DNA of 59,244 nt from Lentisphaerota bacterium (GTDB lineage Bacteria > Verrucomicrobiota > Kiritimatiellia > UBA8416 > JABMPJ01): positions 1 to 59,244 of the forward strand of contig JABMPJ010000210.1 in the NCBI GenBank assembly GCA_013203785.1, in the 5' to 3' direction. How positions within the stretch are numbered: the first letter of the stretch is position 1; the number at the start of each line of letters is the position of its first letter. This document shows, in pieces, positions 9,368 through 56,490 of this stretch. A program made the translations under genes and the position numbers. Under the pieces are notes generated by a model. It did no database searches, was not told the DNA's origin, and saw nothing but the letters and a program-made list of their open reading frames with translations.

Positions 9368-9390
9368 CCGCAGATGGTCGCAGATGGGGG
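9368..9390 (+). repeat. Solo degenerate arm of family A element
   Basis: ccgcagatggtcgcagatggggg in the gap before the deacetylase start. Confidence 0.45.
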
Positions 9391-38482: not shown

Positions 38483-38505
38483 GGTTCGTGGCTGGGGTGG
38501 GGGAG

Positions 38506-38647
38506 AGACTGCCCGCAGATGACGTAGATGGACGCAGATGGGATCGGGATCGGGAACGGGATGAGGGGAATGTGTCCGGGCGCTTCGATGTCGACTCTTC
38601 CTTCTCCGACCCCATCTGCGCTGATCTGCGTCATCTGCGGGCAGTCT
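38506..38647. repeat. Family A palindromic element, copy 1
   Basis: agactgcccgcagatgacgtagatggacgcagatggg ... cccatctgcgctgatctgcgtcatctgcgggcagtct (~37-bp inverted arms). Confidence 0.9.
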
Positions 38648-38672
38648 TTTCCAGAAGTTGAGGAGTGTGGTT

Positions 38673-39146
38673 GTGGCTGACTATCCTTTGTCTGACGAGA
38701 CCTATCGGATTATTGGGGCCTGCTTCGAGGTCTACAATGAGAAGGGGTGCGGTTTCCTGGAGCCTATCTACCAGGAATGTCTCGAAATGGAGTTCGGTCT
38801 ACAGGGCATCCCGTTCAATGCACAGGTGGAGCTGATCTTGGACTATAAGGGGCGCAGGCTGCAGAAGAAGTATGTCCCGGACTTCATCTGTTTTGGCGGA
38901 GTCATTGTCGAGATAAAGGCCTGTAAGGAGATTGTGGCTGAGCATAGGGCACAGTTGATTAATTATCTCCATGCGACTGAGATGAAGGTGGGGATGCTGG
39001 TCAACTTTGGGCACTATCCCGGCTTGCAGTTTGAGCGCTTTGTGAATGAGGGCAAGGAACGGACTGCAGGCCGCGCGATGGTACGGGAGATTCCTTTGGT
39101 GTGGGGGCAGGGGAGTCTGCCCGCAGATGACACAGATGTACGCTGA
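38673..39146 (+). CDS. GxxExxY protein (PD-(D/E)xK nuclease fold)
   Basis: GAGGAG RBS 7 nt before GTG 38673; IIGACFEV...GCGFLEPIYQECL, PDF....VIVEIK, AQLINYL, G.LVNFG. Confidence 0.92.
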   Translation: MADYPLSDETYRIIGACFEVYNEKGCGFLEPIYQECLEMEFGLQGIPFNAQVELILDYKGRRLQKKYVPDFICFGGVIVEIKACKEIVAEHRAQLINYLHATEMKVGMLVNFGHYPGLQFERFVNEGKERTAGRAMVREIPLVWGQGSLPADDTDVR

Positions 39147-39261
39147 TGGGATCGGGATCGGGATGTGGAACGGGATGAGGGGAATGTGTCCGGGCGCTTC
39201 GATGTCGACTCTTCCTCCTCCGACCCCATCTGCGCTGATCTGCGTCATCTGCGGGCAGTCT
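39117..39261. repeat. Family A element, copy 2 (direct repeat of copy 1)
   Basis: Differs from copy 1 by 5 substitutions and one 6-bp indel; contains the GxxExxY stop codon. Confidence 0.9.
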
Positions 39262-39314
39262 CTTCCTGAGACTTCGGAGTTTACACGCTGGGGCACGCAG
39301 GGTAGGGTCTCGGC

Positions 39315-41345
39315 ATGGTTCGTTGCTCGCGGTTCGTACCCTATATTCCCCTGTTGATTGTGCTGGGGGGCGTGTTGAGTTATCTCAACACATTCGGAAA
39401 CCCCTTTATCTTTGACGACCTGCCTGCCATCGTGGGCAATCGCAATATCGGGCAGCTCTGGCCTGTCATTCCAGGGGCCCGGTGGATCGTTAATCTCTCC
39501 TTCCGCCTAAATTATGCGCTCGCCGGGTTCAGTGTGGCTGAGTATCACGCGGTCAACCTGCTGATCCACATCTGGGCAGCGCTGCTTCTCTTCGGTATTG
39601 TGCGTCGCACCCTCGCCCTGCCAGGGCTGCGCACGCTGTGGGGTGATGCCGCGCCATGTCTCGCCGGGGTGAGCGCGCTGCTGTTCGTGGTGCATCCCCT
39701 CCAAACCGGTAGCGTGAGCTATCTCTGTCAGCGTTATGAATCCATGATGGGTCTCTTCTTCCTGGGGACGCTCTATGCCTTCATCCGTGCTGTGACAGCT
39801 GGCTCTACGCGTAGCCAATGGGGATGGGCGACGGGGACGATTGCACTCTGTCTGCTGGGTATGGGCACCAAGGAAGTCATGCTGACGGCTCCTTTCGTGC
39901 TTCTGCTGTATGATTGGATCTTCCTGGGGAAGGGGGCCGTCCCAACCCCCTCCCCACACAGGCCCTCGCTCTTGAGGTGGTTCATTCATGTGGGCTGTTT
40001 CGCCAGTCTGCTCGTTCTGCTTGTCTTTGAGCTGCAGATGGTACGTGAGCTGTCGGCAGGTGGTCACGACATGGTGAGCGTGGTGTCGCCCTGGCTCTAT
40101 CTGGCGACGCAGACGGAGGTCATTCTGCACTATCTACGGTTGGCCGTGTGGCCGACGGGTCAATGTCTGGACTATGCGTGGCCGATCGTGGCGGGGTGGG
40201 GCGAGATATGGCCGGCCGCACTGGCGGTGATCGGCTTGGGCTTGCTGACGCTATGGGGCACGTGGAAACGGATGCCCTGGGCATTTCTGGGCGGCTGGTT
40301 CTTTCTGATTCTAGCACCCTCCTCCAGTCTGCTTCCCGCACCCGATGCGGCGTTCGAACACCGTATGTACCTGCCATTGGCAGCGGTGTTGGTGGGGTAC
40401 GTGATCGGAGCCTACCGGCTTCTGAGATCACATGTCATGCGCTCGCCACGTATGGGGGCAATTCTGGTAGTGGCCGCGATGGGTCTGGCGGTGGTTCTGG
40501 GATGGGGCACACATCTGCGCAATCGCTGCTATGCCACGAGTGAGGCGATGTGGCGTGATGTCATGGCCAAGCAGCCGGGGAACTACCGTCAGCGACTGGC
40601 GCTCTTCCATGCCCTCTTCAATCGGGGGGACGATGCGGAGGCGGAGCAGGTGATCCGATCGCTGATGGCGGATACAGTGGATGGGTTTAACCGGGGGGAG
40701 AGCTCGGTGGTAGCGGCACGGGATCCCTTCTGGCACTACGCCGTGGCACGCGGACAATGGGGGCGGCTGCTGCTGCGCCGCGGCGATGCGGCCGCTGCGG
40801 TGACGGAGATCGCGTCGGCGATTCGGGCGCTACCGGGACATTCGGTGCTGCACCACAATATGGCGCGGGCCCTCTCGGCGTTGGGGCGCTATGATGAGGC
40901 GCTGCTGGCTTCACAGGAATCGCTGCGGCTGGATCCGAGCTATGCACGCGGGCACGGGATGATGGGGTTCCTGCTCGTTCAGCGGGGCGATTATGGCGGC
41001 GGCGCGGCGGCGTACCGTGAGGCGTTGAGACTGAGTCCACCACCGCACCATGCACTCAGCCTGGAGTATGCCTGGCTGCTGGCAACGGCGCCGGACGCAG
41101 CGGTGCGGCTGGGCACCGAGGCTGAGCGGATCGCGGCGGAGGTGAGCCGGGCGCTGGAGGGCCGCAGTGCGCGAGCCCTTGATGTGTTGGCGGCGGCTCA
41201 GGCGGAGCAGGGGCGATTTGATGAGGCGATTGAGACGGTGAAGCTGGCGCTGGCGTTGGCGGGGGAAGAGGAGCGGGAGGGGCTGCGGGAGAGGCTGGAG
41301 TGTTATGGCCGTGGTGAGGCGGCCGGCGGATGGCCGCGGATGTGA
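39315..41345 (+). CDS. TMTC-like (GT-C) membrane protein with C-terminal TPRs, putative protein O-mannosyltransferase
   Basis: FIFDD in the first loop, YH.VNLLIH, HPLQT.SV.Y..QR.E, KE, YLRL..WP..QCLDY, EHRMYLP, followed by TPR helices. Confidence 0.78.
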   Translation: MVRCSRFVPYIPLLIVLGGVLSYLNTFGNPFIFDDLPAIVGNRNIGQLWPVIPGARWIVNLSFRLNYALAGFSVAEYHAVNLLIHIWAALLLFGIVRRTLALPGLRTLWGDAAPCLAGVSALLFVVHPLQTGSVSYLCQRYESMMGLFFLGTLYAFIRAVTAGSTRSQWGWATGTIALCLLGMGTKEVMLTAPFVLLLYDWIFLGKGAVPTPSPHRPSLLRWFIHVGCFASLLVLLVFELQMVRELSAGGHDMVSVVSPWLYLATQTEVILHYLRLAVWPTGQCLDYAWPIVAGWGEIWPAALAVIGLGLLTLWGTWKRMPWAFLGGWFFLILAPSSSLLPAPDAAFEHRMYLPLAAVLVGYVIGAYRLLRSHVMRSPRMGAILVVAAMGLAVVLGWGTHLRNRCYATSEAMWRDVMAKQPGNYRQRLALFHALFNRGDDAEAEQVIRSLMADTVDGFNRGESSVVAARDPFWHYAVARGQWGRLLLRRGDAAAAVTEIASAIRALPGHSVLHHNMARALSALGRYDEALLASQESLRLDPSYARGHGMMGFLLVQRGDYGGGAAAYREALRLSPPPHHALSLEYAWLLATAPDAAVRLGTEAERIAAEVSRALEGRSARALDVLAAAQAEQGRFDEAIETVKLALALAGEEEREGLRERLECYGRGEAAGGWPRM

Positions 41346-41357
41346 TGTGAGGTGTTT

Positions 41358-41715
41358 GGGCTGCTGACGTAGTGGGGGAGTTTGCCCGCAGATGGCCGCA
41401 GATGTTCGCAGATGGGATGTGGGTGGTGTACTGGTGTGTGGATGAGGGATGTGGCGGGAATCGCCCAGATCGGAATACCGATCTGAACGATTCCCGCCAC
41501 GTTTCACCTGGCTGCTGATCGCAGCCGAAGGGGCGCTTGGGCTGTCGGAGTGCATCGCAGGAAAGTTGGGCTTTCGGTTGGATTCTGTTCCCATGAGTGT
41601 AGCCAGGGGTTTTGCCGGGCGCGATTGGCGCCGACGGATTCGCACAACAGTTCCCGTTCCCATCTGCGCAGATCTGCGGCCATCTGCGGGCAACTCCCCA
41701 CTGCGTCAGCAGCCC
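41358..41715. repeat. Family A element, copy 3, MITE/REPIN-like with ~58-bp terminal inverted repeats
   Basis: gggctgctgacgtagtgggggagtttgcccgcagatggccgcagat ... atctgcggccatctgcgggcaactccccactgcgtcagcagccc; fills the gap between two convergent stops. Confidence 0.88.
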
Positions 41716-43203
41716 TCACCGTGCGGCGCGAATGAGCCGCGGTAGGATCATGGGTGCGATGAGCGTGAGGTAGAGCAGAATGGCGCTGATGGCCATGCCC
41801 GCAGAACGTGACACGAGCCGCTCAACCGGCCCCGCCCAGAGGGAGAGAGAGAGCAGGCCCACGCCGCAACCTGAGATGTAGAGGGCGCGGGAGGGCGCGA
41901 GTCCAAATGAGGGCATCTTCACTTTCAAAAGCACAAAGCCAGCTATTCCCATCACGGCATGCGTACAGCACACCGCAATGGCCGCGCCACGAAGTCCGTA
42001 TTTGGGAATCAGCCATAAGCAGAGTCCGACGTTGATCAGCGGTCCGAACAGCATGATGAGTGATGTTGTGTGGTTGCGTTGCTTGGCATTCCAGGCGTTG
42101 AAGCAGAAATAGCCGGAGATATAGAGGATCATGCCAGCCGCAAGGTATGGAAGGAGGGCGCCCGCAGCGACGAATTGTTCTGAAAAGAGCAGGGCAATGA
42201 TCCGATTTCCGAAGGGCACCGTCACCAGCAAGGCAAGCCAGAGCAACGCCAGCATGGCGTTGACAAAATCGGAACAGAGCTTGGCAATGGCCGGTTCCGA
42301 ATCGCCTTCTCCCCACATGGCCGCGATCACCGGTATGCTGACCGTGGGTAGGATGATCAATAGGGCGTAAAGGATCATCACAATCGGCACGGCCACACTA
42401 TAGACCGCCATGGCGGTTGCCCCGAGCAACATCGTTGCCACAAGCTGGTCCACGTAGAGCACGGTCTGGGCACTGATGTTAAAAATCGCCAACCAGAGTC
42501 CTCTGATCAAATATCTACCGACCCCCTGCAGTGAGAAATAGCGAAGGTGCATATCTACACGCCCGGACCCCACGATGTAGGACATGGCCAACAAGCAGAA
42601 GAGGCCGCTGCCGCCTATAAAGAGGAGCGGTGGCACGCGGATCGATGGCCCGCAGCGCAAGGCAACCATCAGCATCAGCATAAACTTTAGGAGCAGCATC
42701 CCGTAGCCAACGACAAACGCCCTAAATGAACAGAGCACAGCAAAGAGATGCCCCTCCAAACAGAATAGGGGGAAGAAGAATGCCATCAGGCGAATAGCAT
42801 CCACGGCTTCCTCTTGGTGAAAGAAGTGCGTAGCCAGCCAAGGGGCCAGGATCCAAAAGCCGATAGTGCCCATCACCCCGGAGAGCACCTTGTAGAGGGC
42901 CGTGGAGAAAAAAATGTGACTGACCGCCTCTGTGTCGCCGGCCGCGTGCTCTTTCGATATGGCTATTGTGGAGTAATTGGCCCCGCCCAGATCGATCAGT
43001 ATGGCGGTGAAGAATAGGACGGTATAGTTGATGTAGAACCAGCCAAAATCGGCCGGCGCTAGCGTTAGGGCCCAGTGGCGGCGCAGGACAAGATTGACGA
43101 GCCCCATCCCCACGGTACTCACCAGTCCGATTAGTGTGCCTTGGGCAAGGTGTTTATGGTGCGACGTCTGTATTGGTGTTTGCGCCATATGTGGGGGGAG
43201 CAT
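41716..43203 (-). CDS. wzx: Oligosaccharide flippase (Wzx/MATE-like)
   Basis: LAPADFG, D.G, VDQLV...LLG...AVYSVA, NVGL...LIPKYGLRGAAIA; many TM segments. Confidence 0.78.
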   Translation of the reverse strand: MLPPHMAQTPIQTSHHKHLAQGTLIGLVSTVGMGLVNLVLRRHWALTLAPADFGWFYINYTVLFFTAILIDLGGANYSTIAISKEHAAGDTEAVSHIFFSTALYKVLSGVMGTIGFWILAPWLATHFFHQEEAVDAIRLMAFFFPLFCLEGHLFAVLCSFRAFVVGYGMLLLKFMLMLMVALRCGPSIRVPPLLFIGGSGLFCLLAMSYIVGSGRVDMHLRYFSLQGVGRYLIRGLWLAIFNISAQTVLYVDQLVATMLLGATAMAVYSVAVPIVMILYALLIILPTVSIPVIAAMWGEGDSEPAIAKLCSDFVNAMLALLWLALLVTVPFGNRIIALLFSEQFVAAGALLPYLAAGMILYISGYFCFNAWNAKQRNHTTSLIMLFGPLINVGLCLWLIPKYGLRGAAIAVCCTHAVMGIAGFVLLKVKMPSFGLAPSRALYISGCGVGLLSLSLWAGPVERLVSRSAGMAISAILLYLTLIAPMILPRLIRAAR

Positions 43204-43294
43204 AGCATAGCGTCGCCGATTGGCTAACTAGATCTAGAAGGAAGAGTTAAGTCAGAAATGATGAACGCTTCCCTGAATGATTCATGAACTATTA

Positions 43295-43680
43295 GGAGAG
43301 GCTGCCCGCAGATCACGCAGATCGGCGCAGATGGGAGGGCTGAGGGGGGGGGTGAGAAATGTTGCGAGAATAGTGCAGCGGGGAATACCCCTCTGAACGA
43401 TTCTCGCAACGTGGCTCCCCGGTGGCTGATCGCCGCCAGTAGGGATGGGAAAACAGCAAGCAGCCATGGAGGTGAGATGGAAGGGGTTATGAGTCTGGAT
43501 ACGGGTCTTTCCGGCTGCGATCAGCAGCTGGCGGATAAGGTTGAGCGAATCCTATGGCGGAGGCTTGTCCTACGAAGCTTCAGCGAAGTAGGATATTCCT
43601 CTGCCGACGGATTCGCTCAACATTTCTTCTTTCCCATATCCCATCTGCGCGAATCTGCGTCATCTGCGGGCAGTCCCTCT
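43295..43680. repeat. Family A element, copy 4 (two inverted arm+H-hairpin halves, nested family B)
   Basis: Arms at 43302 and 43673; H hairpins at 43359-43412 (+) and 43538-43623 (-); family B at 43564-43593. Confidence 0.85.
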
Positions 43681-43769
43681 CCCCCTCTTCACGAGATCAA
43701 GAATTTGATGGATGGATCAGGCCAAATGGTGCGCCCGAATCGCTATGCAACGACCCTGGGGGGTTTTTA

Positions 43770-44657
43770 ATGATCTGGATTACTGGTGCCAATGGAATGC
43801 TGGGTAGCGATTTGGTGCCGCTATTGCGCGACGGGGGATGGGATGTGCTGGCGACCGATGCCGAGGTTGATGTCCGCGATAGTGAAGCGCTACGGGTGGC
43901 CGTGGCGAGCAAACCAATCGATTGGGTGATTAACTGTTGTGCTTATACGGCCGTTGACGCCGCCGAGGCCAACGAGGCGGCCGCCATGGCAATCAATGTC
44001 GACGGGGCCGCGCATGTGGCGGAGGTGGCCACGTCGCTCCAGGCCCGCATGATCCATATCTCGACGGACTACGTCTTTGACGGGCAAGCCACGCATCCCC
44101 GAACGGAGGATGAGCCGCGCTCCCCGATCGGAGTATATGCCCGCTCTAAGGCTGAAAGTGAAAAGCGCGTTGCGGCCGCCGCACCTGATTCCACGATTCT
44201 TCGGACCGCCTGGTTGTATGGGCACCATGGCGGCAATTTTGTGCATACGATGCTGCGTCTTATGGAAGAACGGGAGCAGATCTCCGTCGTGAACGACCAG
44301 TTCGGCTCTCCAACGCAGACGGTCACGCTCTGTCGCGTCATCCGCCAGATAATCCGTCGGGACGTCCACGCCGACGGCATCTACCATGTCACGAGCCGTG
44401 GTGAAACCTCGTGGTATGGGTTCGCGCTAGCCATTCGCGATCTGGCCCTTGAGCGCGGATTGCTCTCGCACCCGTGTGAAGTGAAGCCGATAGCCACGGT
44501 AGACTATCCCACCCCGGCACGTCGCCCACCCTACTCCGTGCTCTCATGTGCCAAGATTGAGGGCCTTCTTGATATTGAGCTGCCTTCGTGGCAGTCCAGC
44601 CTGGCCACTTTCCTCACAGAGGCGGCCGAGCTGCCGAAGCACACAGCCGTCGTATAG
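43770..44657 (+). CDS. rfbD: dTDP-4-dehydrorhamnose reductase
   Basis: MIWITGANGMLG, NCCAYTAVD.AE, HISTDYVFDG, YARSK, VVNDQFGSPT, YPTPARRP.YSVL. Confidence 0.93.
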   Translation: MIWITGANGMLGSDLVPLLRDGGWDVLATDAEVDVRDSEALRVAVASKPIDWVINCCAYTAVDAAEANEAAAMAINVDGAAHVAEVATSLQARMIHISTDYVFDGQATHPRTEDEPRSPIGVYARSKAESEKRVAAAAPDSTILRTAWLYGHHGGNFVHTMLRLMEEREQISVVNDQFGSPTQTVTLCRVIRQIIRRDVHADGIYHVTSRGETSWYGFALAIRDLALERGLLSHPCEVKPIATVDYPTPARRPPYSVLSCAKIEGLLDIELPSWQSSLATFLTEAAELPKHTAVV

Positions 44658-44667
44658 GGAGCCGCGA

Positions 44668-44937
44668 GGAGAGGCTGCCCGCAGATCACGCAGATCGACG
44701 CAGATGAGAGGGATGATGGGGGGGCCGTGAGTCAGCGATACTTGTCGATGAGTCTGGATACGGGTCTTTCCGGCTGCGATCAGCAGCTGGCGGATAACGT
44801 TGAGCGAATCCTATGGCTGAGGCTTGTCCTACGAAGCTTCAGCGAAGTAGGATATTCCTCCGCCGACGGATTCACTCAACATTTCTTCTTTCCCATATTC
44901 CATCTGCGTCGATCTGCGTGATCTGCGGGCAGTCTCT
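44668..44937. repeat. Family A element, copy 5
   Basis: 44748-44934 matches 43489-43675 with ~9 mismatches in 187 bp; family B at 44823-44852. Confidence 0.88.
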
Positions 44938-44997
44938 GTCTCTCTCGTCACACGATCTCTAAACGAACTCCCTCGCTATTCTTGCATGACTCCCTGA

Positions 44998-45735
44998 CTA
45001 ATCCTTGATGCACTTGAGATAGCCGTTTGGCGCGCAGGTGATCAGCAGCTTGCTGTCGATATCCTTGTCCACGACAAAGCGGTCGTTTTTCTCCAGAAAC
45101 GCCCATACCGCTGTCTTGGGGTTGTTGCCCTTGCCCCAGGGGCGCTCAGAGAAGAGCGCGTCATCCGCATCCTCGATGCCGGTATCTAGTACGATGAGAT
45201 AGCTGCCCTTCTTAACCAGCGAGGCATAGAGATCAAGTTCCCGCATCACATGGTCATGGGTGTGATTGGAGTCTAGAACCACCATCACGCGCGGCTTTCC
45301 CTCAGCAAACTGGTGTACCTGCCGCGCAATCTCCTCGTCGATGGATGATCCCTCGATCATGTGAATGCGCTTCACCATGGGGTGGGCCTCGATAGCCGCG
45401 CGGTTGTGCTCCCGGATGTCGATGTCGACGCCAAGCACCTCGCCGTGGCCGAGTAGCTCCAGCATGGAGGCATGAAAAATGATGGAGCCGCCATGGGCAA
45501 TGCCGGTCTCAATAATCAGATCGGGCTTTACCTCCCAAATCAACTCCTGCATCGCCATGATGTCCTGAGGAAACTGGATGATCGGTCGGCCCATCCACTT
45601 GAAGAAATAGCTATACTTGTGGGGTGCGGAGTCCTCCATGAAGCAACGGGCGGTCGCACGAAGGCTCTCGTTCTTTCCTGCAGCCTCAATATCGGCGCGT
45701 TTCTCCTCTTCAAACTGTCGGACTGCATCATTCAT
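44998..45735 (-). CDS. CmcI (cephalosporin hydroxylase) family, probable sugar O-methyltransferase
   Basis: WMGRPIIQFPQD, KPDLIIETGIAHGGS, LDSNHTHDHV, WGKGNNPKTAV. Confidence 0.9.
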   Translation of the reverse strand: MNDAVRQFEEEKRADIEAAGKNESLRATARCFMEDSAPHKYSYFFKWMGRPIIQFPQDIMAMQELIWEVKPDLIIETGIAHGGSIIFHASMLELLGHGEVLGVDIDIREHNRAAIEAHPMVKRIHMIEGSSIDEEIARQVHQFAEGKPRVMVVLDSNHTHDHVMRELDLYASLVKKGSYLIVLDTGIEDADDALFSERPWGKGNNPKTAVWAFLEKNDRFVVDKDIDSKLLITCAPNGYLKCIKD

Positions 45736-46753: not shown

Positions 46754-46756
46754 GGC

Positions 46757-47893: not shown

Positions 47894-47905
47894 GAAAGCC
47901 TCCTG

Positions 47906-49473: not shown

Positions 49474-50717
49474 GCTACCTCCCTTTCTCCGGCAGACGGT
49501 GGCACTTCTTCGGCTTCAATCTCCACGTCGAGAGCCTCTTCCGCCGCTTGCGCTTTGGCCATCACGTCGGCACGGCTCTCGCCCACCGCCATAATCTGAC
49601 CACAGCGTTTGCCCCCCTCATCGATCACGCCAATCCTGTCGCCGGGGCGCAGGCCGATTCCCACCTGGATGACGCCGTCGATGGCTTGCGCATCTGTCAC
49701 GCCATCCACCCTCATCACACGCCCTGGAGAGAACGTCAAAAATGTGAGGATACCATCCTTTCGACGGGGAGGAGACCCCAGCGATACGCGTTCGCCCAGG
49801 GCCTGCCGAATCCGTGCTTCGAGCAGGTCCAACCCCGTCATGGCAGGGAGCAGTTCTGTCGCCACACGTGCGCCGCAGCCGCGGGCTGCGACCTCAATCA
49901 GCCGCACACCATTCTCCGTTACCATGTACTCCCCGTGGGTGAACCCCATGCGAATCCCCACGGCACGTACCACGGCTTCATGCGTGCGCTGCAAGGCGTG
50001 CATGGTCTGCTCGTCAAAGGCGGCGGGGTAGATGAGCTGGAGATCGAAACTGTATGGCGGCGCGCACTTCACCTTGTCGCAGATGCCAAGCGTCTGCACC
50101 CCTTCCGCATCGATGAACGCCTCGACGGAAGATTCTGTGCCCACCATCATGTCCTCCACCAGGACTGTACCCGAACGACTGGCCGCCTGGGCCAGAGGAA
50201 ACCGGGCCGCCACGTCATCGAGGGTCCAGACCTTTGCCACGCCACGGCTGGCCTGGCTGTCGCTGGGTTTCAGCACAACCGGCAGACCTATTTCCTCCGC
50301 GGCGCGGACCGCCTCTGAAACACTCATGGCCTTCCGGTACATCGGCTGTTCAATGCCCGCGCGTCGGCAACACTCCCGCATGAGCCACTTATCCGTGGCC
50401 TGTTGCGCAACCTGGGAGCCGATCCCCGGCAAGCCCATCTGCTCAGCCACGTAGGCCGCCGTAAGTACGGCCGCGTCGGTCTGTTCTGTGATAACGGCCT
50501 CAACACGATGTTGACGCGCCACCGCTAACATGCGCTTGCAGTCAAACACACTAACCGTCTCAGCCACATTCGCACAGCGAAGCCCCATGGCGTTCGGATC
50601 TCGATCCGCAGCCACCACCTTCAGTCCCATGGCCTGCGCCTTCAGAATCAGCGGCACCACGGCATCACTGGCGGGCAGTATCAAGATATTACGATCCGTC
50701 ATCGGCGGTTCACTCAC
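49470..50717 (-). CDS. ATP-grasp domain ligase
   Basis: TDKWLMR, PVVLKPSDSQASRGV, GTESSVE, HGEY, LIEVAARGCG. Confidence 0.85.
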   Translation of the reverse strand: MSEPPMTDRNILILPASDAVVPLILKAQAMGLKVVAADRDPNAMGLRCANVAETVSVFDCKRMLAVARQHRVEAVITEQTDAAVLTAAYVAEQMGLPGIGSQVAQQATDKWLMRECCRRAGIEQPMYRKAMSVSEAVRAAEEIGLPVVLKPSDSQASRGVAKVWTLDDVAARFPLAQAASRSGTVLVEDMMVGTESSVEAFIDAEGVQTLGICDKVKCAPPYSFDLQLIYPAAFDEQTMHALQRTHEAVVRAVGIRMGFTHGEYMVTENGVRLIEVAARGCGARVATELLPAMTGLDLLEARIRQALGERVSLGSPPRRKDGILTFLTFSPGRVMRVDGVTDAQAIDGVIQVGIGLRPGDRIGVIDEGGKRCGQIMAVGESRADVMAKAQAAEEALDVEIEAEEVPPSAGEREVA

Positions 50718-51244
50718 TTCCCAGCGTCGAGAAAGCCCTTGTCGCGCTGTGACAGAATGACGTCATCCAGCGGCCACGTTATCCCCACCAGCGGGTCATT
50801 GTAGCGGATGCCGCGTTGAGCCGAAGGGGCATAGGGCTGCGACATCTGGAAGAACACCTCGGTCTTGTCCTCGAGGGTCTGAAACCCGTCCGCGACGCCC
50901 TTGGGTATGTAGAGCAGATTCTGGTTGGCTGCCGATAACTCGAAGGCTTCCCACGTCCGCCATGTTGGCTCGCTCTCCCGCACGTCTACCACCACGACAT
51001 ACGCAGATCCTCGCGTACAACGGACCAACATCTCTTCCTCATGCGGCGCACACTGGTAGTGCAGACCTCGCACTGTCCCCTTCCGTGTATTAAAGACGGT
51101 GTTGCATTGCGCAAAGGTCATGTTGATCCCATGCTTCGCGAATTCCCTGGCACAGAAGGTGCGCGCAAAAACGCCCCGATCGTCCTCAATGCGTTCGGGC
51201 TCAATCAGCACGACGCCATTCAGTTTTGTCCGTTGAAATAGCAT
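50714..51244 (-). CDS. rfbC: NDP-4-keto-6-deoxyhexose 3,5-epimerase family (RmlC cupin), copy 1
   Basis: DDRGVFARTFC, GTVRGLHYQ, LYIPKGVADGFQTL. The usual EAKLV and AHG are altered to EEMLV and ADG. Confidence 0.8.
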   Translation of the reverse strand: MLFQRTKLNGVVLIEPERIEDDRGVFARTFCAREFAKHGINMTFAQCNTVFNTRKGTVRGLHYQCAPHEEEMLVRCTRGSAYVVVVDVRESEPTWRTWEAFELSAANQNLLYIPKGVADGFQTLEDKTEVFFQMSQPYAPSAQRGIRYNDPLVGITWPLDDVILSQRDKGFLDAGK

Positions 51245-51296
51245 TTACAGTCCTCCCTCTTTGTGTGGTACCACTCCAAAAGCTGCGACAGTGTCA

Positions 51297-52070
51297 TCAT
51301 GGCCACATTTTCCATGGTGCGGTCCCGCCTTCCCACATGTTCTCCAGCAGGATCTTGTCGCGCATGTGGTCCATGCATTGCCAGAACCCCTTATGGCGGA
51401 AGGCCTGCAACTGGCCTTCGCGGGCGAGGGTCATCAAGGGGTATCCTTCAAAACTTGTTGGATCGCCCTCAATCAAATCCAGAACCTGCGGATCGAGCAC
51501 GAAGAATCCACCATTGATCCAACCGCCCTCACCTACCGGTTTTTCATCAAAACCTGTCACGACCGTATCCGACCCTATGACCAGTGACCCGTAACGTGCT
51601 GGCGTGCGGACTGCCGTCACGGTCGCCATTTTGCCATGCTGCTGATGAAACTGCAGGAGACGGGTGATATCCACATTCGCAACGCCATCCCCATAGGTCA
51701 TGCAGAATGCCTCGTCCTTCACAAAGTTGGTCACCCGTTTGAGCCGCCCCCCCGTCATAGTCTCCAGCCCCGTGTCCACTACAGTAACACGCCAAGGCTC
51801 AGCTTTCTGGTGATGGACTTCTATTGAATTTGTGGCCATATCAAACGTCACATCGGCCATATGGAGGAAGTAGTTGGCGAAATACTCCTTGATGATGTAG
51901 CCTTTGTAGCCGCAACAGATCACAAAGTCATTGATTCCGTGAGTCGAATATATCTTCATGACGTGCCACAGAATGGGCTGCGGACCGATCTCTATCATCG
52001 GCTTCGGGCGGAAGATCGATTCTTCCGTTATGCGAGTGCCTTTACCGCCTGCAAGAATCACGGCTTTCAT
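51297..52070 (-). CDS. rfbF: Glucose-1-phosphate cytidylyltransferase
   Basis: MKAVILAGGKGTRITEE...PKPMIEIG, GYKGY.IKEYF.NY, TMTGGRLKR, TYGDG, GFWQCMD. Confidence 0.95.
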   Translation of the reverse strand: MKAVILAGGKGTRITEESIFRPKPMIEIGPQPILWHVMKIYSTHGINDFVICCGYKGYIIKEYFANYFLHMADVTFDMATNSIEVHHQKAEPWRVTVVDTGLETMTGGRLKRVTNFVKDEAFCMTYGDGVANVDITRLLQFHQQHGKMATVTAVRTPARYGSLVIGSDTVVTGFDEKPVGEGGWINGGFFVLDPQVLDLIEGDPTSFEGYPLMTLAREGQLQAFRHKGFWQCMDHMRDKILLENMWEGGTAPWKMWP

Positions 52071-52192
52071 AACACGCTCCCTCCCTGTGAAGTTAATGCC
52101 CCCGAATCATACAGTGGACGCGTAGCGACGCTGGCCTCTGTGATGAATGACTATGTTCGATAAAGCGCACGATGTCAGTGATTTTGTGCCCA

Positions 52193-53101
52193 CTAACGGC
52201 AGCGGACCTTGTTGCGGATCAGAGCCATCAATGGGGGGCAAAACACTTCCGTGATCAGTCCTGCATACAGTCGCAGCGACTTGACCAACAGGATGGGCGT
52301 GATCACGAGCGATACGCCGACGGCCTGCAGCCACGGCAGCTCCATAAAGGCCAATCGCACATGATTACGCTGATAGGTCCATATCTGCCGAAACACCTCG
52401 CGGCGGGTGAACGGAATATCCAGGTTGGCGAAGTACCGTGCCGCACTGCCATAGTCAACACCCCGGCGCATGTAGAAGAGCTCCTCGTCCAAACCCGCGA
52501 TCTTGCCCCTGACCGCCAAGTGGTTGACCTGCATCAGATCGGGACCTATGCAATGTTTCCAGGAAGGCATCCGCCGCAGCGCTTCCAGTCGGAAGATACC
52601 GTACAACATGTAGAGAGAGCGACATGTCACCATACGTATATAGCGCACGGCAGCCGATTTGTTCAGAAATGACTGCGTCTGACCCATCCGCTCGGCCGGG
52701 GTACCGTCCTGCTCCAGGAATCGCCCCGCCGGGTAGGCTGACAGAAGGCTCGGATCGCGCTCCAGGATCGCGATCAGTGACGATGCGAAACGCGGAGCCC
52801 AGAGGTCATGGGCACCCGCCCAGAAGAAGTACTCAGAATCGGCCTCGCGGAGCAGATAGTTGAAGTTCCCTGCCGCGCCGAGATTTTTGGGCTGTCGGAC
52901 GTAGGTCAGATTCGCATGTTGCTCCGCGTAGGCGCGGCCGATCTGTTCGGTCCCGTCGGTCGAGGCGTTGTCGGCGACGATGATCTCAAGGTTGGGGTAG
53001 TCCTGCGCCAGGAGTGAGTCCAGCGTCTGGGCGAGCTGCTCCGCGCCATTGTAGACCGGGACACCGGCGATGACTCTCGGGTTTCCAGCGTCTGCCATCA
53101 T
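52193..53101 (-). CDS. GT2 family glycosyltransferase
   Basis: GVPVYNG, DNASTDGT, NLGAAGNFN, YFFWAGAHD.W. Confidence 0.85.
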   Translation of the reverse strand: MMADAGNPRVIAGVPVYNGAEQLAQTLDSLLAQDYPNLEIIVADNASTDGTEQIGRAYAEQHANLTYVRQPKNLGAAGNFNYLLREADSEYFFWAGAHDLWAPRFASSLIAILERDPSLLSAYPAGRFLEQDGTPAERMGQTQSFLNKSAAVRYIRMVTCRSLYMLYGIFRLEALRRMPSWKHCIGPDLMQVNHLAVRGKIAGLDEELFYMRRGVDYGSAARYFANLDIPFTRREVFRQIWTYQRNHVRLAFMELPWLQAVGVSLVITPILLVKSLRLYAGLITEVFCPPLMALIRNKVRCR

Positions 53102-53108
53102 AGCTTCT

Positions 53109-54230
53109 TCATTCGGTTGGCCCGAGTCTCTCGCGCACGGTCGCCAGCACGTAGGCGACATCGTCCTGCGTCATATCGAAGTAGTTGGGCAGGTTGATGC
53201 CGCGGCCATGCAGCGCATAGGTGACATGATTCTGCGGAGCAGGCTCATACATCGGCAACTTGCTGACGGGGTAGAAGAGAGGGCGAATACCGACTCCCAC
53301 GGAAGTCACGGCCGTCACGAGTGCGTTGCGTCGCACTTCGGTCATGCCCCAGCTCTCGCCAAACATAATGGTCGGTTGCCAGTAGCTGTTGAGACATCCC
53401 TCGGGCTGAGGATTAAGCGCAATGTCATCCCAATCAGCCAAGAGGGTTTGGTACCAATCGAAGATCTTCCGCTTCGCCCCCACCAGCTCCCCGGCCCGTT
53501 CGAACTGTCCTAACCCGAGGGCGGCCTGGATATTGGAGAGTTTGTATTTGAGGCCGATCTCGTCGACCCAGAAGATGATGTGTTTCCCGGGCTTGCGGCC
53601 CTGGTTCTCGATCGTTGCAATCGACTCAACGAGATCGTCCCGATTGCAGAGCAGTGCACCGCCCTCGCCGGATGTCAGCGTCTTGGTGCCGTGCATTGAG
53701 AAGACGCCCATGTCTCCGATCGAACCGGCCTTGCGCCCGTGATACTCCGATCCCACCGCCTCGGCGGCGTCCTCAATCACGGGAATCCCGTGCGCCCGGC
53801 CGATCTCCATGATGGCATCCATATCGCAGAGGTTGCCGTAGAGATGGACGATGACGATGGCCCGGGTTCGTGGCGTTATCGCGGCGATGATGGATGCAGG
53901 ACTGATGCACCAGCTCGACTCCAGCGCGTCGACGAATACCGGTGTGGCACCCAACCAGCTGATCGGGAATACGCTGCCGGTCCAGGTCAGGTCTGGGACA
54001 ATCACCTCGTCCCCCGGCCCGACACCCAGCGCCTTGAGGCCGATGTGCAGAGCTCCGTGGCAACTTGAGGTCGGCCAGACATGCGGGACGTCGAAGTACT
54101 CGCGCAGGCACTCGGAGAACCGGTTGAGATAGTCATAGCACTGCGCGCCCCAGCCGGTCGTCACCGCATCGGTGACATAGTCGATCTCCCGCTGTGTAAT
54201 GGAGGGCTTGGCCGCTAATATCGTTCGCAT
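53109..54230 (-). CDS. DegT family (perosamine synthetase-like) aminotransferase
   Basis: GDEVIVP, VHLYGN, IEDAAEA.GS, FSMHGTKTLTSGEGG, GLKYKLSNIQAALG. Confidence 0.88.
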   Translation of the reverse strand: MRTILAAKPSITQREIDYVTDAVTTGWGAQCYDYLNRFSECLREYFDVPHVWPTSSCHGALHIGLKALGVGPGDEVIVPDLTWTGSVFPISWLGATPVFVDALESSWCISPASIIAAITPRTRAIVIVHLYGNLCDMDAIMEIGRAHGIPVIEDAAEAVGSEYHGRKAGSIGDMGVFSMHGTKTLTSGEGGALLCNRDDLVESIATIENQGRKPGKHIIFWVDEIGLKYKLSNIQAALGLGQFERAGELVGAKRKIFDWYQTLLADWDDIALNPQPEGCLNSYWQPTIMFGESWGMTEVRRNALVTAVTSVGVGIRPLFYPVSKLPMYEPAPQNHVTYALHGRGINLPNYFDMTQDDVAYVLATVRERLGPTE

Positions 54231-54232
54231 AT

Positions 54233-54787
54233 CTATTCCTGACAACCGGACGCCCCTGTCCTCCCCAACAACGGCAATCCCGCATCCCGCTCGGACAGCA
54301 CCGTCGGTGTGAGCGGCCAGGCAATGTCGACCGCCACGTCGTCAAAGCGGAAGCCGCGTGCCAGCTCGGGCTGGTAGGGAGCGCTGATATAGTAGAGTAA
54401 CTCGCTCTCGGCCTCAAGCGTCACGAAGCCGTGCGCAAAACCGCGCGGAATGTAGAGCGCCACCCCGTGCGCTGCTGACAGCTCCTCGCCGACCCACTGC
54501 CCATAGGTGGCCGACTCCGCTCGCACATCCACGGCTACATCAAAGACGCGTCCGCGTGTACATCGTACGATCTTTGTCTCTCCCCCCGGCGCTGCTTGCC
54601 AGTGCATCCCGCGCAGCGTCCCGGCGGCACGATTAAAGGAGATACTGTGCTCGGGAAAGGATGTCTCCAGCCCCGCCTCCGCCAGCTGCCGCCCGCAGAA
54701 GGTCCGGGCAAAATAGCCCCGCTCATCCGCCTGTGGTTCGAGACAAAATTTGAAGACACCGGGTAGCGTTGTGGGTTCAATCTTCAT
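54233..54787 (-). CDS. rfbC: NDP-4-keto-6-deoxyhexose 3,5-epimerase family, copy 2
   Basis: DERGYFARTFC, GTLRGMHWQ, ETKIVRC.RG..FDVAVD.R, YIPRGFAHGF.TL. Confidence 0.88.
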   Translation of the reverse strand: MKIEPTTLPGVFKFCLEPQADERGYFARTFCGRQLAEAGLETSFPEHSISFNRAAGTLRGMHWQAAPGGETKIVRCTRGRVFDVAVDVRAESATYGQWVGEELSAAHGVALYIPRGFAHGFVTLEAESELLYYISAPYQPELARGFRFDDVAVDIAWPLTPTVLSERDAGLPLLGRTGASGCQE

Positions 54788-54815
54788 GCTCTATCTCTGT
54801 CCTTACTGCCCGGTA

Positions 54816-55021
54816 GGGCTGCTGACGCAATGGGGATACTGCCCGCAGATCACGCTGATGGACGCAGATGGGAACGCGAAGGTCCCCGCCCATACTCGCA
54901 GAAATCGCATGCATCCCAGATTCCAGCTCTCTTTCGAAGCGTTCCAACATCCCTTTCCATGTCGTCAAAGTACCCATATCACATCTCATTTCTATCTGCG
55001 CAGATCTGCGTGATCTGCGGG
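54816..55021. repeat. Family A element, copy 6
   Basis: gggctgctgacgcaatggggatactgcccgcagatcacgctgatggacgcagatggga ... atctgcgcagatctgcgtgatctgcggg. Confidence 0.85.
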
Positions 55022-55040
55022 AAAACGCTCCCTTCCCCGC

Positions 55041-56282
55041 TCAAAACACCTCCACCCGCGGGATTGGCACCACAAACTCGCCGCCCCATTCCCGTATCCC
55101 GGCCATCTGCTCACTGATCTCGTCGCGCAGATTCCACGGTAGAATCAAGAGGTACTCCGGCTTGGTCTGCCATACCTGCTCGGGGGCCAGAATCGGGATA
55201 TGGCTGCCCGGCAGGTAGCGCCCCTGCTTGTGGGGATTTCGGTCAACAGCGAAGGCAATGGCGTCGCTCGACACATCGCAGTAGTTTAACAGCGTGTTAC
55301 CCTTGGCGGCGGCGCCATAGGCGGCCACCTGCTTGCCGGCCGCCGCAGCATCCGCCAGAAACGCCTTCAGCTCGCGGCCGACGGTCTGGACCTTCTGGCT
55401 GAAGTTGCGGTAGATATCGCGGTCAAGGAGTCCAAAGGAGCACTCCTTGGCTTGCATGGCTGCCACACTGTCGCCGACGGTGAACGGGCCGTCTGCGTGG
55501 CACGCGTAGATACGAATCGACCCGCCGTGGGTCGGTAGCTCATCCACATCAAACAGTGTGAGACCATGCGCCTTGAAGATTCGCTCCACGGTTGAGAAGG
55601 AGAGGTAGGAGAAATGCTCGTGATATATTGTATCGAACTGATTGCCGTCGATCAGCTGAAGCAGATGCGGGAACTCCATCGTGATCACGCCCGACGGTTT
55701 CAGTAGCCGTTTGAGACCGGCCACAAAATCGTTAATGTCGGGTACATGTGCGAGCACATTGTTGCCCAGCAGTAGATCGGCCTGCCGGCCCGCCTTCGCC
55801 AGTCCGCCTGCTAGTGTCTCTCCGAAGAACTCCTCAAGCGTCTCGACGCCTTTTCCCCTCGCCGCCTTGGCTGTGCTGGCGGTCGGTTCGATTCCCAGGA
55901 CATTGAAGCCGCGGCCATGAAAGTATTGCAGTAGGTAACCGTCGTTGCTGGCCACTTCCACGATTTGACTTTGCTCCGGTGTCAGGCTGAACCGGTCGAT
56001 CATCTGTGCTACGTAACGCTGCGCGTGCTCGAGGAAGCTGGTCGAGTAGCTGGAGAAGTAGGCGTAGTTGGCGTCAAAAATCGTATCCCTGGTCTCAACC
56101 GCCTCGATCTGCATCAGAAAGCAGGCCGTACAGAGATAGACGCAGAGCGGATAGCGCGACTCATGCTCCCCGAGCTGCTCTGCCGTCAGATACCCGTTCG
56201 AGAGAGGATGCATGCCGAGATCAACCACTTGTTCCGTTAGCAGGGCGTGGCAGAATCGGCAGTGTGGGGTTGCGTCAGTCAT
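55041..56282 (-). CDS. NDP-hexose C-methyltransferase (Zn-binding, NovU/TylCIII-like)
   Basis: CRFC, DLGMHPLSN, CTAC, YAYFSS, EVASNDGYLL, FDTIYHEHFSY, YGAAAKGNTLLNY, PWN. Confidence 0.9.
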   Translation of the reverse strand: MTDATPHCRFCHALLTEQVVDLGMHPLSNGYLTAEQLGEHESRYPLCVYLCTACFLMQIEAVETRDTIFDANYAYFSSYSTSFLEHAQRYVAQMIDRFSLTPEQSQIVEVASNDGYLLQYFHGRGFNVLGIEPTASTAKAARGKGVETLEEFFGETLAGGLAKAGRQADLLLGNNVLAHVPDINDFVAGLKRLLKPSGVITMEFPHLLQLIDGNQFDTIYHEHFSYLSFSTVERIFKAHGLTLFDVDELPTHGGSIRIYACHADGPFTVGDSVAAMQAKECSFGLLDRDIYRNFSQKVQTVGRELKAFLADAAAAGKQVAAYGAAAKGNTLLNYCDVSSDAIAFAVDRNPHKQGRYLPGSHIPILAPEQVWQTKPEYLLILPWNLRDEISEQMAGIREWGGEFVVPIPRVEVF

Positions 56283-56320
56283 ATATTCATTCCTTTGATC
56301 CGAGATTCCTATTCACATCC

Positions 56321-56490
56321 CTGCTAACGCACTGGAGAGACTGCCCGCAGATCACGCAGATGGACGCAGATGGGATCGGGAACAAGAATGAAACTGTTGT
56401 ACGAATCCGTCGGGCGCTGATTCCTCCACATCCCTTACCCATATCCTCTCTCATCTGCGAAGATCTGCGGCCATCTGCGGGCAAACTCCC
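56321..56490. repeat. Family A element, copy 7, overlapping the rfbG 3' end
   Basis: ctgctaacgcactggagagactgcccgcagatcacgcagatggacgcagatggga ... catctgcgaagatctgcggccatctgcgggcaaactcccc. Confidence 0.88.

What the first reader, a model, noticed from the sequence alone, without database searches (positions are those of the whole stretch)
38506..56490. Candidate mobile/repeat system: a GxxExxY nuclease-fold gene cassette plus a dispersed palindromic element family
Seen: seven elements (38506, 39117, 41358, 43295, 44668, 54816, 56321) share inverted arms ctgcc(CGCAGAT-N2-3)x3-GGG around variable 70-300 bp interiors. All sit at gene junctions. Copies 1 and 2 are near-identical direct repeats that tightly bracket the GxxExxY gene. 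Established: GxxExxY proteins have a PD-(D/E)xK fold with, to my knowledge, no assigned function; RAYT transposases are flanked by the REPs they spread. Inference: this is a REP/RAYT-like arrangement with a non-HUH enzyme, in which GxxExxY recognises the CGCAGAT arrays or hairpins and spreads the elements or remodels glycan loci. No transposase or integrase gene is in the window.
Basis: partly seen in the sequence, partly recalled or inferred. Interest (0 to 1): 0.85.

Follow-up and report, generated by a model that had tools for sequence, protein, structure and literature searches.

The report
Nuclease gene with matching palindromic repeats
The seven palindromic repeats are real and look like gene-less copies of a widespread, apparently undescribed small mobile element whose only gene is the GxxExxY nuclease, which gives this large protein family of unknown function a testable role.

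Summary
Seven palindromic "doublets" with arms CTGCC(CGCAGAT-N2-3)x3 lie at 38501-56491, all at gene junctions. Two 92%-identical copies bracket the GxxExxY gene.

The main result goes beyond the window. GxxExxY (PF13366) genes in general are bounded by inverted arrays of three about 7-bp units at an 8-10 bp period.
- A strict automated test is passed by 39 of 56 loci in the own genome and 30 relatives, and by 59 of 80 loci from many phyla.
- Only 1 of 1500 random genome positions passes, and that one is itself a GxxExxY gene.
- The unit sequence differs between paralogs in one genome (five types here) and follows the protein tree: 35 changes against 67±2 in shuffles.
- Gene-less doublets with the same arms are scattered, from 0 to 51 exact arrays per related genome, and cluster near the cognate gene.
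- Orthologous junctions in congeners lack three of the window's elements.
- In Sphingomonas, a 437-bp arm-gene-arm unit sits between fabD and fabG, and is absent in a sister species.
- No transposase with these ends was found.

I read this as a REPIN/RAYT-like or MITE-like system driven by a PD-(D/E)XK nuclease. Recognition and cleavage are inferred, not shown. Several relatives carry the doublets without a detectable cognate gene. A role specific to glycan loci is not supported.

The parts
38501..38652 (.). Doublet E1. Arm(+) is at 38509-38541 and arm(-) at 38612-38644, with 58 nt between the extended inverted arms. It lies directly after the stop of the 3392-aa ORF and about 20 nt before the GxxExxY start.
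   Evidence: (I6: 47 nt, 85% complementary)
38673..39146 (+). GxxExxY gene, a PD-(D/E)XK nuclease fold of 157 aa. The domain spans 38694-39038. The last about 12 codons run into the left arm of E2. The start is taken as GTG 38673, which matches the 157-aa database form P0001.
   Evidence: (E30, D70, K82 invariant; E80 nearly invariant)
39109..39266 (.). Doublet E2. Arm(+) is at 39117-39149 and arm(-) at 39226-39258. It is a direct repeat of E1, 92% identical over 127 nt.
   Evidence: (D4, I12)
41374..41698 (.). Doublet E3, between the convergent TPR gene and flippase gene. Arms are at 41382-41415 and 41660-41693. It carries the H1 hairpin module at 41449-41502. It is absent at the same junction in congener G004.
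   Evidence: (I18)
43294..43680 (.). Doublet E4, between the divergent flippase and RmlD genes. Arms are at 43302-43334 and 43641-43673. It carries H1 at 43359-43412 and a second long hairpin at about 43538-43625. It is absent at the same junction in congener G001.
   Evidence: (I13, D2, D6)
44667..44937 (.). Doublet E5, after the RmlD stop. Arms are at 44675-44707 and 44900-44932 and are 97% complementary. Its interior is 92% identical to that of E4 over 210 nt. Nothing corresponding lies downstream of RmlD in G001.
   Evidence: (I15, D2)
54831..55033 (.). Doublet E6, between the dTDP-sugar epimerase gene and the C-methyltransferase gene. Arms are at 54839-54871 and 54992-55024.
56333..56491 (.). 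Doublet E7, between the C-methyltransferase gene and the epimerase/dehydratase gene. Arms are at 56341-56373 and 56451-56484.
   Evidence: (I5, I8, I9)
9369..9388 (+). Arm remnant of two CGCAGAT units, in the 24-nt spacer between a methyltransferase gene and a polysaccharide deacetylase gene.
   Evidence: (E 0.018)

Best explanation
The seven elements are gene-less members (doublets) of a family of small mobile DNA elements. The gene-bearing members carry a single gene, the GxxExxY PD-(D/E)XK nuclease.

Each element end is an arm of three about 7-bp direct repeats spaced 8-10 bp apart. The two arms are inverted. Many copies also carry a conserved hairpin module (H1) just inside the arm. In the clade of the window's protein, the gene sits between two short doublets, so each end of the unit is itself a palindrome.

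Proposed mechanism, inferred and not shown: several copies of the nuclease bind the repeated units of the arms, each nuclease clade reading its own unit. They pair the ends and cut at or near them. The cut unit, with or without the gene, is then inserted or copied into intergenic spacers with help from host repair or replication, preferentially close to the donor.

Shown here: the anatomy, the link between gene and arms, the match between arm type and protein clade, gene-less copies, patchy copy numbers, local clustering, empty sites, and an intact catalytic motif.

Not shown: binding, cleavage, the insertion chemistry and any target duplication.
For: 1. Own genome. The 4 other GxxExxY genes, one of them split across two contig ends, are each flanked by inverted 3x arrays of their own unit: ACAGGAT, CGCAGAG, CACGGAT and CACGGAA. 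The full-length paralogs are only 27-36% identical to the window's protein.

2. Strict automated test for paired inverted 3x arrays. It is passed by 39 of 56 loci from the own genome and 30 relatives and by 59 of 80 loci from many phyla. Most failures still show degenerate or two-unit arrays. Of 1500 random positions in the own genome, 1 passes, and that one is the C111 GxxExxY gene.

3. Arm type follows the protein tree. There are 35 state changes on a tree of 92 proteins, against 67.0±2.0 in 500 label shuffles (minimum 59). Clades in the IQ-TREE of 54 proteins cut across genomes. The closest homologs from other phyla (56-71% identity) carry the same CGCAGAT unit, most with the same GCCCGCAGAT terminus.

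4. Conservation sits in the units. Between the two arms of one element, unit positions are 94% identical (1685/1785) and spacer positions 63% (236/375), over 85 elements.

5. Gene-less doublets exist for several arm types in the own genome. Exact CGCAGAT arrays number 0-51 per genome in 31 related genomes, and the reversed-pattern control gives 0 everywhere.

6. Cross test. Five genomes with a CGCAGAT-type gene hold 12, 1, 12, 0 and 6 CGCAGAT arrays against 2, 0, 0, 0 and 0 CGCGAAT arrays. Five genomes with a CGCGAAT-type gene hold 2, 4, 9, 8 and 4 CGCGAAT arrays against 0, 0, 2, 0 and 0 CGCAGAT arrays.

7. Arrays cluster around the gene in the window (7 of about 14 within 18 kb, P 7e-13), in G031 (9 of its 12 within 10.5 kb) and in G035.

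8. Empty sites. E3, E4 and E5 are missing at orthologous junctions of congeners. In Sphingomonas parapaucimobilis the fabD-fabG spacer is 464 nt and holds a 437-bp arm-gene-arm unit. In S. paeninsulae the spacer is 32 nt.

9. Finished replicons of other phyla show the arrays: Bacteroides and Bernardetia (CACAGAG), Gemmatirosa (a CGCGGAT doublet) and Sphingomonas (CGCGAAG).

10. E30, D70 and K82 are invariant and E80 is nearly invariant in 33 sequences. The model (pLDDT 85) matches PD-(D/E)XK nucleases: Cas4, lambda exonuclease and Hjc.

11. No transposase lies next to any arm in the own genome.

12. G009 holds 48 PF13366 matches, most of them fragments, as expected of a family that multiplies and decays.
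Against: 1. No binding, cleavage or transposition was observed. Everything rests on comparison.

2. G001 (24), G004 (5), G005 (3), G021 (51) and G029 (17) hold exact CGCAGAT arrays, but their best homolog of the window's protein is at most 55% identical and carries other arms. G018 (1) and G028 (3) were checked only by the arm labels. So doublets persist, and perhaps multiply, without a detected cognate gene. These are incomplete metagenome assemblies (71-95% complete). A 0.5-kb gene between repeats tends to fall on a tiny contig, as it does in run X1 (579-nt record), so absence is weak evidence, but it stands.

3. No target-site duplication could be defined, because the genomes compared are too divergent.

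4. A PD-(D/E)XK nuclease hydrolyses DNA and has no known strand-transfer activity, from established knowledge of the superfamily. The 'paste' step is therefore unexplained.

5. The match of arms to the protein tree could reflect plain co-inheritance of one unit, not recognition. It shows few independent switches. The best residue-base link, N22 with T at unit position 7 (57 of 58, against 0 of 19 with A), rests on only 2 independent contrasts.

6. Contigs of four public runs showed no form lacking an element.
Confidence: 0.6

Rival explanations
1. This is a homing-type selfish gene. GxxExxY is a sequence-specific endonuclease that cuts gene-less doublets, which serve as its landing pads, and is copied into them by repair from a gene-bearing copy. 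The doublets themselves spread or persist by some other process, such as host recombination, replication slippage or another enzyme.
For: Gene-bearing units in several clades look like a doublet with the gene in the centre: arm-H1-gene-H1-arm in L014 and L051. Doublets exist without a cognate gene in five relatives. A small PD-(D/E)XK homing endonuclease is known, I-Ssp6803I (recalled, not checked here).
Against: In the window's clade the gene lies between two complete doublets, not inside one. The Sphingomonas insertion is an arm-gene-arm unit in a spacer that holds no doublet in the sister species. So the whole unit, arms included, arrives together. The spread of the doublets remains unexplained.
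Confidence: 0.15
2. The arms and hairpins are regulatory or RNA-processing sites, and the DNA is not moved by this protein. GxxExxY binds its arrays or hairpins as DNA operators or as stem-loops in transcripts. It controls itself and neighbouring genes. The units spread only by ordinary horizontal transfer and recombination.
For: All copies lie at gene junctions. The arms and H1 can form long stem-loops, and 15 of 20 H1 pairs show compensatory changes. A palindrome reads the same in transcripts of either strand. Three units on one face of the helix resemble operator arrays (inference).
Against: Copy number varies from 0 to 51 between related genomes. Copies in different species are more alike (75-98%) than the coding DNA around them (64-72%). 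Empty orthologous junctions keep the same gene order. The inserted Sphingomonas unit ends at the arms. These are marks of mobile DNA. No Rfam family matches.
Confidence: 0.13
3. These are ordinary MITEs of an unrecognised insertion sequence. A conventional transposase elsewhere recognises the ends, and GxxExxY is a passenger.
For: Some related assemblies have arms at contig ends (G021), where a multi-copy IS could be hidden. Doublets occur without the cognate GxxExxY gene.
Against: No arm pair in the own genome encloses a transposase. The flanking genes are UvrB, NIF3, SHMT, PurE/PurD, FabF and the like. The sole ORF between arms is GxxExxY in dozens of loci from many phyla, with arm types that follow that protein. 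A passenger would not co-vary with the ends.
Confidence: 0.05
4. The doublets are recombination sites kept by the host to shuffle glycan-gene cassettes. They would work like attC sites of integrons.
For: In the window, and in G035, single genes are separated by doublets like cassettes. The window is one large polysaccharide locus.
Against: The flippase-RmlD and TPR-flippase neighbourhoods are the same in congeners without doublets. The other 38 kb of the glycan locus has none. Elsewhere the doublets lie between housekeeping genes, in a type I restriction-modification operon and in a toxin-antitoxin/IS66 island. No integrase was found in the window ORFs scanned.
Confidence: 0.04

Closest known systems
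REPIN-RAYT systems (REP doublets and REP-associated tyrosine transposases)
   Same: A single small enzyme gene is flanked by its own short palindromic repeats. The gene-less mobile-looking unit is a doublet of two inverted repeats that can fold into a hairpin. Different repeat types pair with different enzyme lineages, and copies are intergenic. Basis: search listing and abstract starts of PMC5581495, PMC8049555, PMC8266576 and PMC3686654, plus my own knowledge.
   Different: The enzyme here is a PD-(D/E)XK nuclease (PF13366), not an HUH/Y1 transposase. Each arm is an array of three about 7-bp direct repeats, not one 20-40 nt palindrome with a GTAG or CGTC tag. There are several enzyme-arm pairs per genome, and copy numbers are low (0 to about 50).
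IS elements with their MITEs
   Same: Terminal inverted repeats, gene-bearing and gene-less forms with the same ends, patchy distribution and empty sites.
   Different: There is no DDE, serine, tyrosine or HUH transposase. The only gene is a 125-160 aa nuclease. No target duplication was seen. The ends are built of triple short repeats, often followed by a conserved hairpin.
IS200/IS605 family
   Same: Very small elements, hairpin-forming sequences at both ends, and a small single-domain enzyme.
   Different: Those use an HUH Y1 enzyme with a covalent intermediate, asymmetric ends and no inverted repeats (established knowledge). Here the ends are inverted and the enzyme class differs.
PD-(D/E)XK homing endonuclease I-Ssp6803I, and TnsA of Tn7
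   Same: They show that a small PD-(D/E)XK protein can be a sequence-specific selfish nuclease (I-Ssp6803I) or can cut transposon ends (TnsA). Tn7 and Mu ends also carry several repeated binding sites.
   Different: I-Ssp6803I lives in a group I intron and its site is the uninterrupted target. TnsA works only together with the DDE protein TnsB. Neither context is present here.
23S rRNA intervening sequences with their small ORF
   Same: A small conserved ORF of unknown function is bounded by inverted repeats and inserted into otherwise conserved DNA.
   Different: A different protein family (a four-helix bundle), a different target (rRNA helices), and no triple-unit arms known to me.

Membership tests
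PD-(D/E)XK nuclease superfamily, PDDEXK_3 / GxxExxY (PF13366, TIGR04256) | Significant match to the family profiles | tested here: met
   PF13366 E 1.7e-40, 138.5 bits against a cut-off of 22. TIGR04256 E 5.9e-40, 136.3 bits against a cut-off of 35.
PD-(D/E)XK nuclease superfamily, PDDEXK_3 / GxxExxY (PF13366, TIGR04256) | Catalytic motif: E in helix 1, then D, then (D/E)xK | tested here: met
   E30, D70 and K82 are invariant and E80 is nearly invariant in 33 sequences. D70 and K82 are also invariant among four paralogs of the own genome.
PD-(D/E)XK nuclease superfamily, PDDEXK_3 / GxxExxY (PF13366, TIGR04256) | Restriction-endonuclease-like fold | tested here: met
   The AlphaFold2 model has pLDDT 85.2. 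Best Foldseek matches are Cas4 SSO0001 (E 5.7e-4, TM 0.43-0.52), lambda exonuclease and Hjc. There is no sequence match in the PDB.
REPIN-RAYT | Enzyme is an HUH/Y1 (IS200-like) transposase | tested here: not met
   The only family matched is PF13366.
REPIN-RAYT | Enzyme gene flanked by its own repeats, with gene-less inverted doublets dispersed in the genome | tested here: met
REPIN-RAYT | REP is a single 20-40 nt imperfect palindrome with a conserved GTAG or CGTC head | tested here: not met
   The arms are arrays of three units, with the terminus CTGCC-CGCAGAT. The feature itself is taken from the abstract start of PMC3733652.
IS/MITE | Terminal inverted repeats | tested here: met
IS/MITE | Parent element with a transposase of a known class and the same ends | tested here: not met
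   No arm pair in the own genome (93.7% complete) encloses a transposase.
IS/MITE | Target-site duplication | tested here: inconclusive
   The occupied and empty sites compared are too divergent to place the junction to the base.
Integron cassette array (attC) | Integron integrase and attC core sites | tested here: not met
   No integrase domain was found in 43 window ORFs. The arm sequence is unrelated to the attC cores as I recall them.
Known RNA families (Rfam 15) | Match at the gathering threshold | tested here: not met
   0 matches in the whole window.

The most novel reading that the evidence does not exclude
GxxExxY elements are a new class of prokaryotic transposable element, found in many bacterial phyla. 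Their only protein is a stand-alone PD-(D/E)XK nuclease of about 125 aa. It reads triple short-repeat ends with a clade-specific, perhaps simple, residue-to-base code, for example residue 22 N or K with T or A at unit position 7. It moves both itself and gene-less hairpin doublets, preferentially to nearby intergenic spacers.
Probability: 0.4. Interest if true: 0.9.

Novelty: new variant of a known kind. Interest (0 to 1): 0.82.

Why it matters
GxxExxY/PDDEXK_3 is a very large family with no assigned function. The search listed 5947 homologs at E<=1e-10 among length-matched candidates. The only functional entry I found in print is 'Unknown' in the PD-(D/E)XK survey PMC3424549 (one table row read).

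Tying these genes to cognate repeat arrays and gene-less doublets does three things.
- It gives the family a concrete, testable substrate.
- It explains a class of intergenic palindromes in Verrucomicrobiota, Planctomycetota, Bacteroidota and other phyla, which break metagenome assemblies.
- It would, if the nuclease drives the movement, add an enzyme class to the known transposition chemistries.

The many natural protein-unit pairs also offer material for studying how a minimal nuclease reads DNA.

Tried and rejected
- The search for related loci with an alignment of four paralogs failed because no stretch was conserved enough. I used the genome search with the Pfam family and later the single protein.
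- A first de novo array scan timed out and was rewritten with numpy.
- The control that pairs upstream and downstream flanks of different loci is uninformative, because many loci share a unit (137 of 300 pass). It was replaced by random genome positions.
- Sequencing runs: four DNA runs of one study hold the stretch, and no RNA holder is listed. All are kept as contigs that break at nearly every arm. No joint skips an element, so they say nothing on presence/absence polymorphism.
- The homodimer prediction gave no verdict.
- The PDB sequence search found 0 matches.
- PADLOC and PHROGs gave only weak matches to Cas4 and an endonuclease (E about 1e-3). I do not file this as a defence gene.
- Rfam gave nothing.
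- Megablast of the Prevotella and Bacteroides loci against plasmid records found no empty site.
- The scan for specificity residues produced one striking column (residue 22), but with only 2 independent contrasts. It is kept as a lead only.
One call was rejected for a malformed word, and the retry was answered 'closed'.
- Literature searches: 'GxxExxY' gave 3 papers, 2 listed. 'PDDEXK_3'/'PF13366' gave 2 papers. REPIN/RAYT/nuclease/non-HUH gave 11 papers. PDDEXK or restriction-endonuclease-like fold with MITE or terminal inverted repeats gave 405 papers, of which 15 listed titles were read. None describes repeats around GxxExxY genes. Passages were read only in PMC3424549 and PMC8934634. For the others I saw only the listing and the start of the abstract. 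Supplements were not consulted.


Full report
**The observation**

The window is contig C200 of a 3.996-Mb draft genome with 229 contigs, GC 59.5% and completeness 93.7%. Seven elements lie at 38501-38652, 39109-39266, 41374-41698, 43294-43680, 44667-44937, 54831-55033 and 56333-56491. Each has two inverted arms of the form CTGCCCGCAGAT-N2-3-CGCAGAT-N3-CGCAGATGG.

The heptamer occurs 59 times in the window against 13 expected, and none of 100 shuffles reached that count. E1 and E2 are 92% identical direct repeats. They bracket a 157-aa ORF that matches PF13366 and TIGR04256 'GxxExxY'. Rfam has no match.

The whole window is a polysaccharide locus holding glycosyltransferases, methyltransferases, two flippases, Wzy and dTDP-sugar enzymes. 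No transposase or integrase domain appeared in the 43 ORFs scanned.

**Genome-wide count**

An arm profile finds about 14 elements in the genome. Seven are in the window. The others are on C4, C12, C93, C100 and C147, with single arms on C196 and C223. Seven within 18 kb of a 4-Mb genome has a Poisson probability of 7e-13.

Outside the window they lie between housekeeping genes: UvrB|NIF3, UDPGP|FGE-sulfatase, Nth|cysteine synthase, SHMT|methylase, PurE|PurD and CsgG|FabF. No arm pair encloses a transposase.

**The key finding**

The genome has four more GxxExxY genes, one of them split over two contig ends. Each is directly flanked by inverted arrays of three units, but the unit differs: ACAGGAT, CGCAGAG, CACGGAT or CACGGAA. 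The full-length paralogs are only 27-36% identical to the window's protein. Gene-less doublets of the CACGGAA and CACGGAT types also exist.

I then fetched 52 full-length GxxExxY loci from 30 related genomes and 80 loci of close homologs from many phyla.

- A strict automated test requires three units with at most 1-2 mismatches at 8-11 bp spacing on both sides, in inverted orientation. It is passed by 39 of 56 loci and by 59 of 80 loci.
- Most of the rest show degenerate or two-unit arrays.
- Of 1500 random positions in the own genome, one passes, and that one is the C111 GxxExxY gene.
- Finished replicons show the same: Bacteroides finegoldii and Bernardetia (CACAGAG), Gemmatirosa (a CGCGGAT doublet) and Sphingomonas (CGCGAAG). 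The Treponema, Fusobacteria, Prevotella and Persicobacter loci are less regular.
- Longer forms of the protein (265-286 aa) carry arrays of other units.

**Co-variation**

On an IQ-TREE of 54 proteins, the clades correspond to unit types and even to spacing. They cut across genomes and families.

On a FastTree of 92 proteins with confident labels, the unit type changes 35 times, against 67.0±2.0 in 500 shuffles (minimum 59). Of the 8 proteins with CGCAGAT arms, 7 fall in one clade of 12; they come from Verrucomicrobiota, Pontiella, Planctomycetales, Desulfobacterales and a MAG labelled Gammaproteobacteria. The Victivallales protein L152 falls outside that clade.

Between the two arms of one element, unit positions are 94% identical and spacer positions 63%. 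Conservation therefore sits in the repeated units, not in overall hairpin complementarity.

One protein column tracks unit position 7. At residue 22 of the window's protein, N goes with T in 57 of 58 elements, and with A in 0 of 19, of which 16 have K. This rests on only 2 independent contrasts.

**Layout**

In the clade of the window's protein the gene lies between two short doublets: arm(+) arm(-) gene arm(+) arm(-). This holds in the window and in L080, L084, L090 and L180, and with variations in L078 and L081.

In other clades a single arm lies on each side, often with a hairpin module (H1) between arm and gene. H1 (ATGTTGCGRGAAT ... GGAATACC ... ATTCYCGCAACGT) has 20 predicted pairs in 30 copies, and 15 of them show compensatory changes.

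The larger doublets of congener G001 contain two H1 modules and a further small hairpin.

**Signs of mobility**

- Exact CGCAGAT arrays number 16, 24, 5, 3, 51, 17, 3 and 1 in 8 of 31 related genomes, and 0 in the other 23. The reversed-pattern control is 0 throughout.
- Element pieces match between congeners at 75-98%, while the surrounding coding DNA matches at 64-72%.
- G001 has the flippase|RmlD junction without E4 (about 95 nt against 570 nt) and nothing corresponding to E5. G004 has the TPR|flippase junction without E3.
- In Sphingomonas parapaucimobilis the fabD-fabG spacer is 464 nt and contains a 437-bp arm-gene-arm unit. In S. paeninsulae the spacer is 32 nt. The inserted DNA therefore ends at the arms.
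- G009 has 48 PF13366 matches, mostly fragments.
- Arrays match the gene type in a 5x5 genome cross test: 31 against 2, and 27 against 2.
- Arrays cluster around the gene in G031 and G035 as they do in the window.

**The protein**

E30, D70 and K82 are invariant and E80 is nearly invariant. The model (pLDDT 85) is a minimal PD-(D/E)XK fold nearest to Cas4, lambda exonuclease and Hjc, with TM-scores of only 0.4-0.5. There is no PDB sequence match. Defence and phage libraries give only weak matches.

**Results against my reading**

- G001, G004, G005, G021 and G029 have CGCAGAT arrays but no close homolog of the window's protein; the best is 55% identical, with other arms. G018 and G028 were judged only.
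- These are incomplete assemblies, and the gene tends to fall on a sub-kilobase contig. The negative result stands nevertheless.
- No target duplication, no excised form and no polymorphic allele were seen.
- A hydrolytic nuclease does not explain insertion.
- Co-variation may reflect co-inheritance.
- The glycan-remodelling idea is not supported. Gene order is kept in congeners that lack the elements. The first 38 kb of the locus has no doublet. In other genomes the context is restriction-modification, toxin-antitoxin/IS66 or small accessory genes.

**Comparison with known systems and verdict**

It works most like REPIN-RAYT and IS-MITE pairs, but it fails the defining enzyme feature of both (see the membership table).

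In the searched library I found nothing in print on repeats around GxxExxY genes.

My reading is a new variant of the 'small selfish enzyme plus cognate palindromic repeats' kind. It has a PD-(D/E)XK nuclease and triple-unit ends, and it is widespread across bacterial phyla. Confidence that gene and arms form one mobile unit with cognate recognition is about 0.6. The chemistry is unknown.

Noticed in passing
own genome: C211:1-160 and C10:1-130 (loci L010, L011); C111:9250-9850 (L008): A second repeat with ends GGCTCTTCGCTACTTTG..TGGGTA interrupts the CACGGAA-type GxxExxY gene. Both halves end at contig ends inside this repeat. An inverted pair of the same sequence lies just outside the arms of the C111 element. 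It is probably another multi-copy mobile element that breaks the assembly.
   Followed up: no
window 41449-41502, 43359-43412; L158-L177; L014, L026, L032, L051, L058: A conserved roughly 54-nt hairpin module (H1) lies just inside many arms. Its base and its loop (GGAATACC) are conserved, and its inner stem is hypervariable but always paired. Of 20 pairs, 15 show compensatory changes. It occurs with several different arm types.
   Followed up: partly
L065 (G029:C179) and L067 (G021:C59): Longer GxxExxY proteins (265-286 aa, with an extra C-terminal domain) are flanked by long inverted arrays of another unit (GACAGAAT or GGCAGAAT) at an 11-12 bp period.
   Followed up: partly
G009, many contigs: One related genome has 48 PF13366 matches. 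Most are N-terminal (about residues 1-59) or C-terminal (about 67-116) halves, some with stop codons. This looks like a burst followed by decay or internal deletion.
   Followed up: no
L180 (G040:C2:250500-261000): A doublet-GxxExxY-doublet unit of the CGCGAAT type sits between two hsdM genes of a type I restriction-modification operon. A further doublet lies inside the frame called for hsdR.
   Followed up: no
own genome C100:439-1030 (L005): A truncated arm and a full arm bracket 535 nt that encode only the C-terminal half of a Mem_trans (AEC-type) transporter. A nucleotidyltransferase gene (Polbeta family) follows.
   Followed up: no
G029:C83:13410-13522, C58, C144, C214: In one relative the CGCAGAT arrays occur as same-strand tandem copies about 40-44 nt apart, not as inverted doublets.
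   Followed up: no
window 28304-38482: A 3392-aa ORF with three Laminin_G_3 (concanavalin-like lectin) stretches ends 19 nt before E1. It is probably a giant surface protein.
   Followed up: no
G021, e.g. C50:11983-12046: A related 8.1-Mb genome holds 51 exact CGCAGAT arrays. Many are minimal doublets whose arms are only about 10 nt apart, and several lie at contig ends.
   Followed up: no
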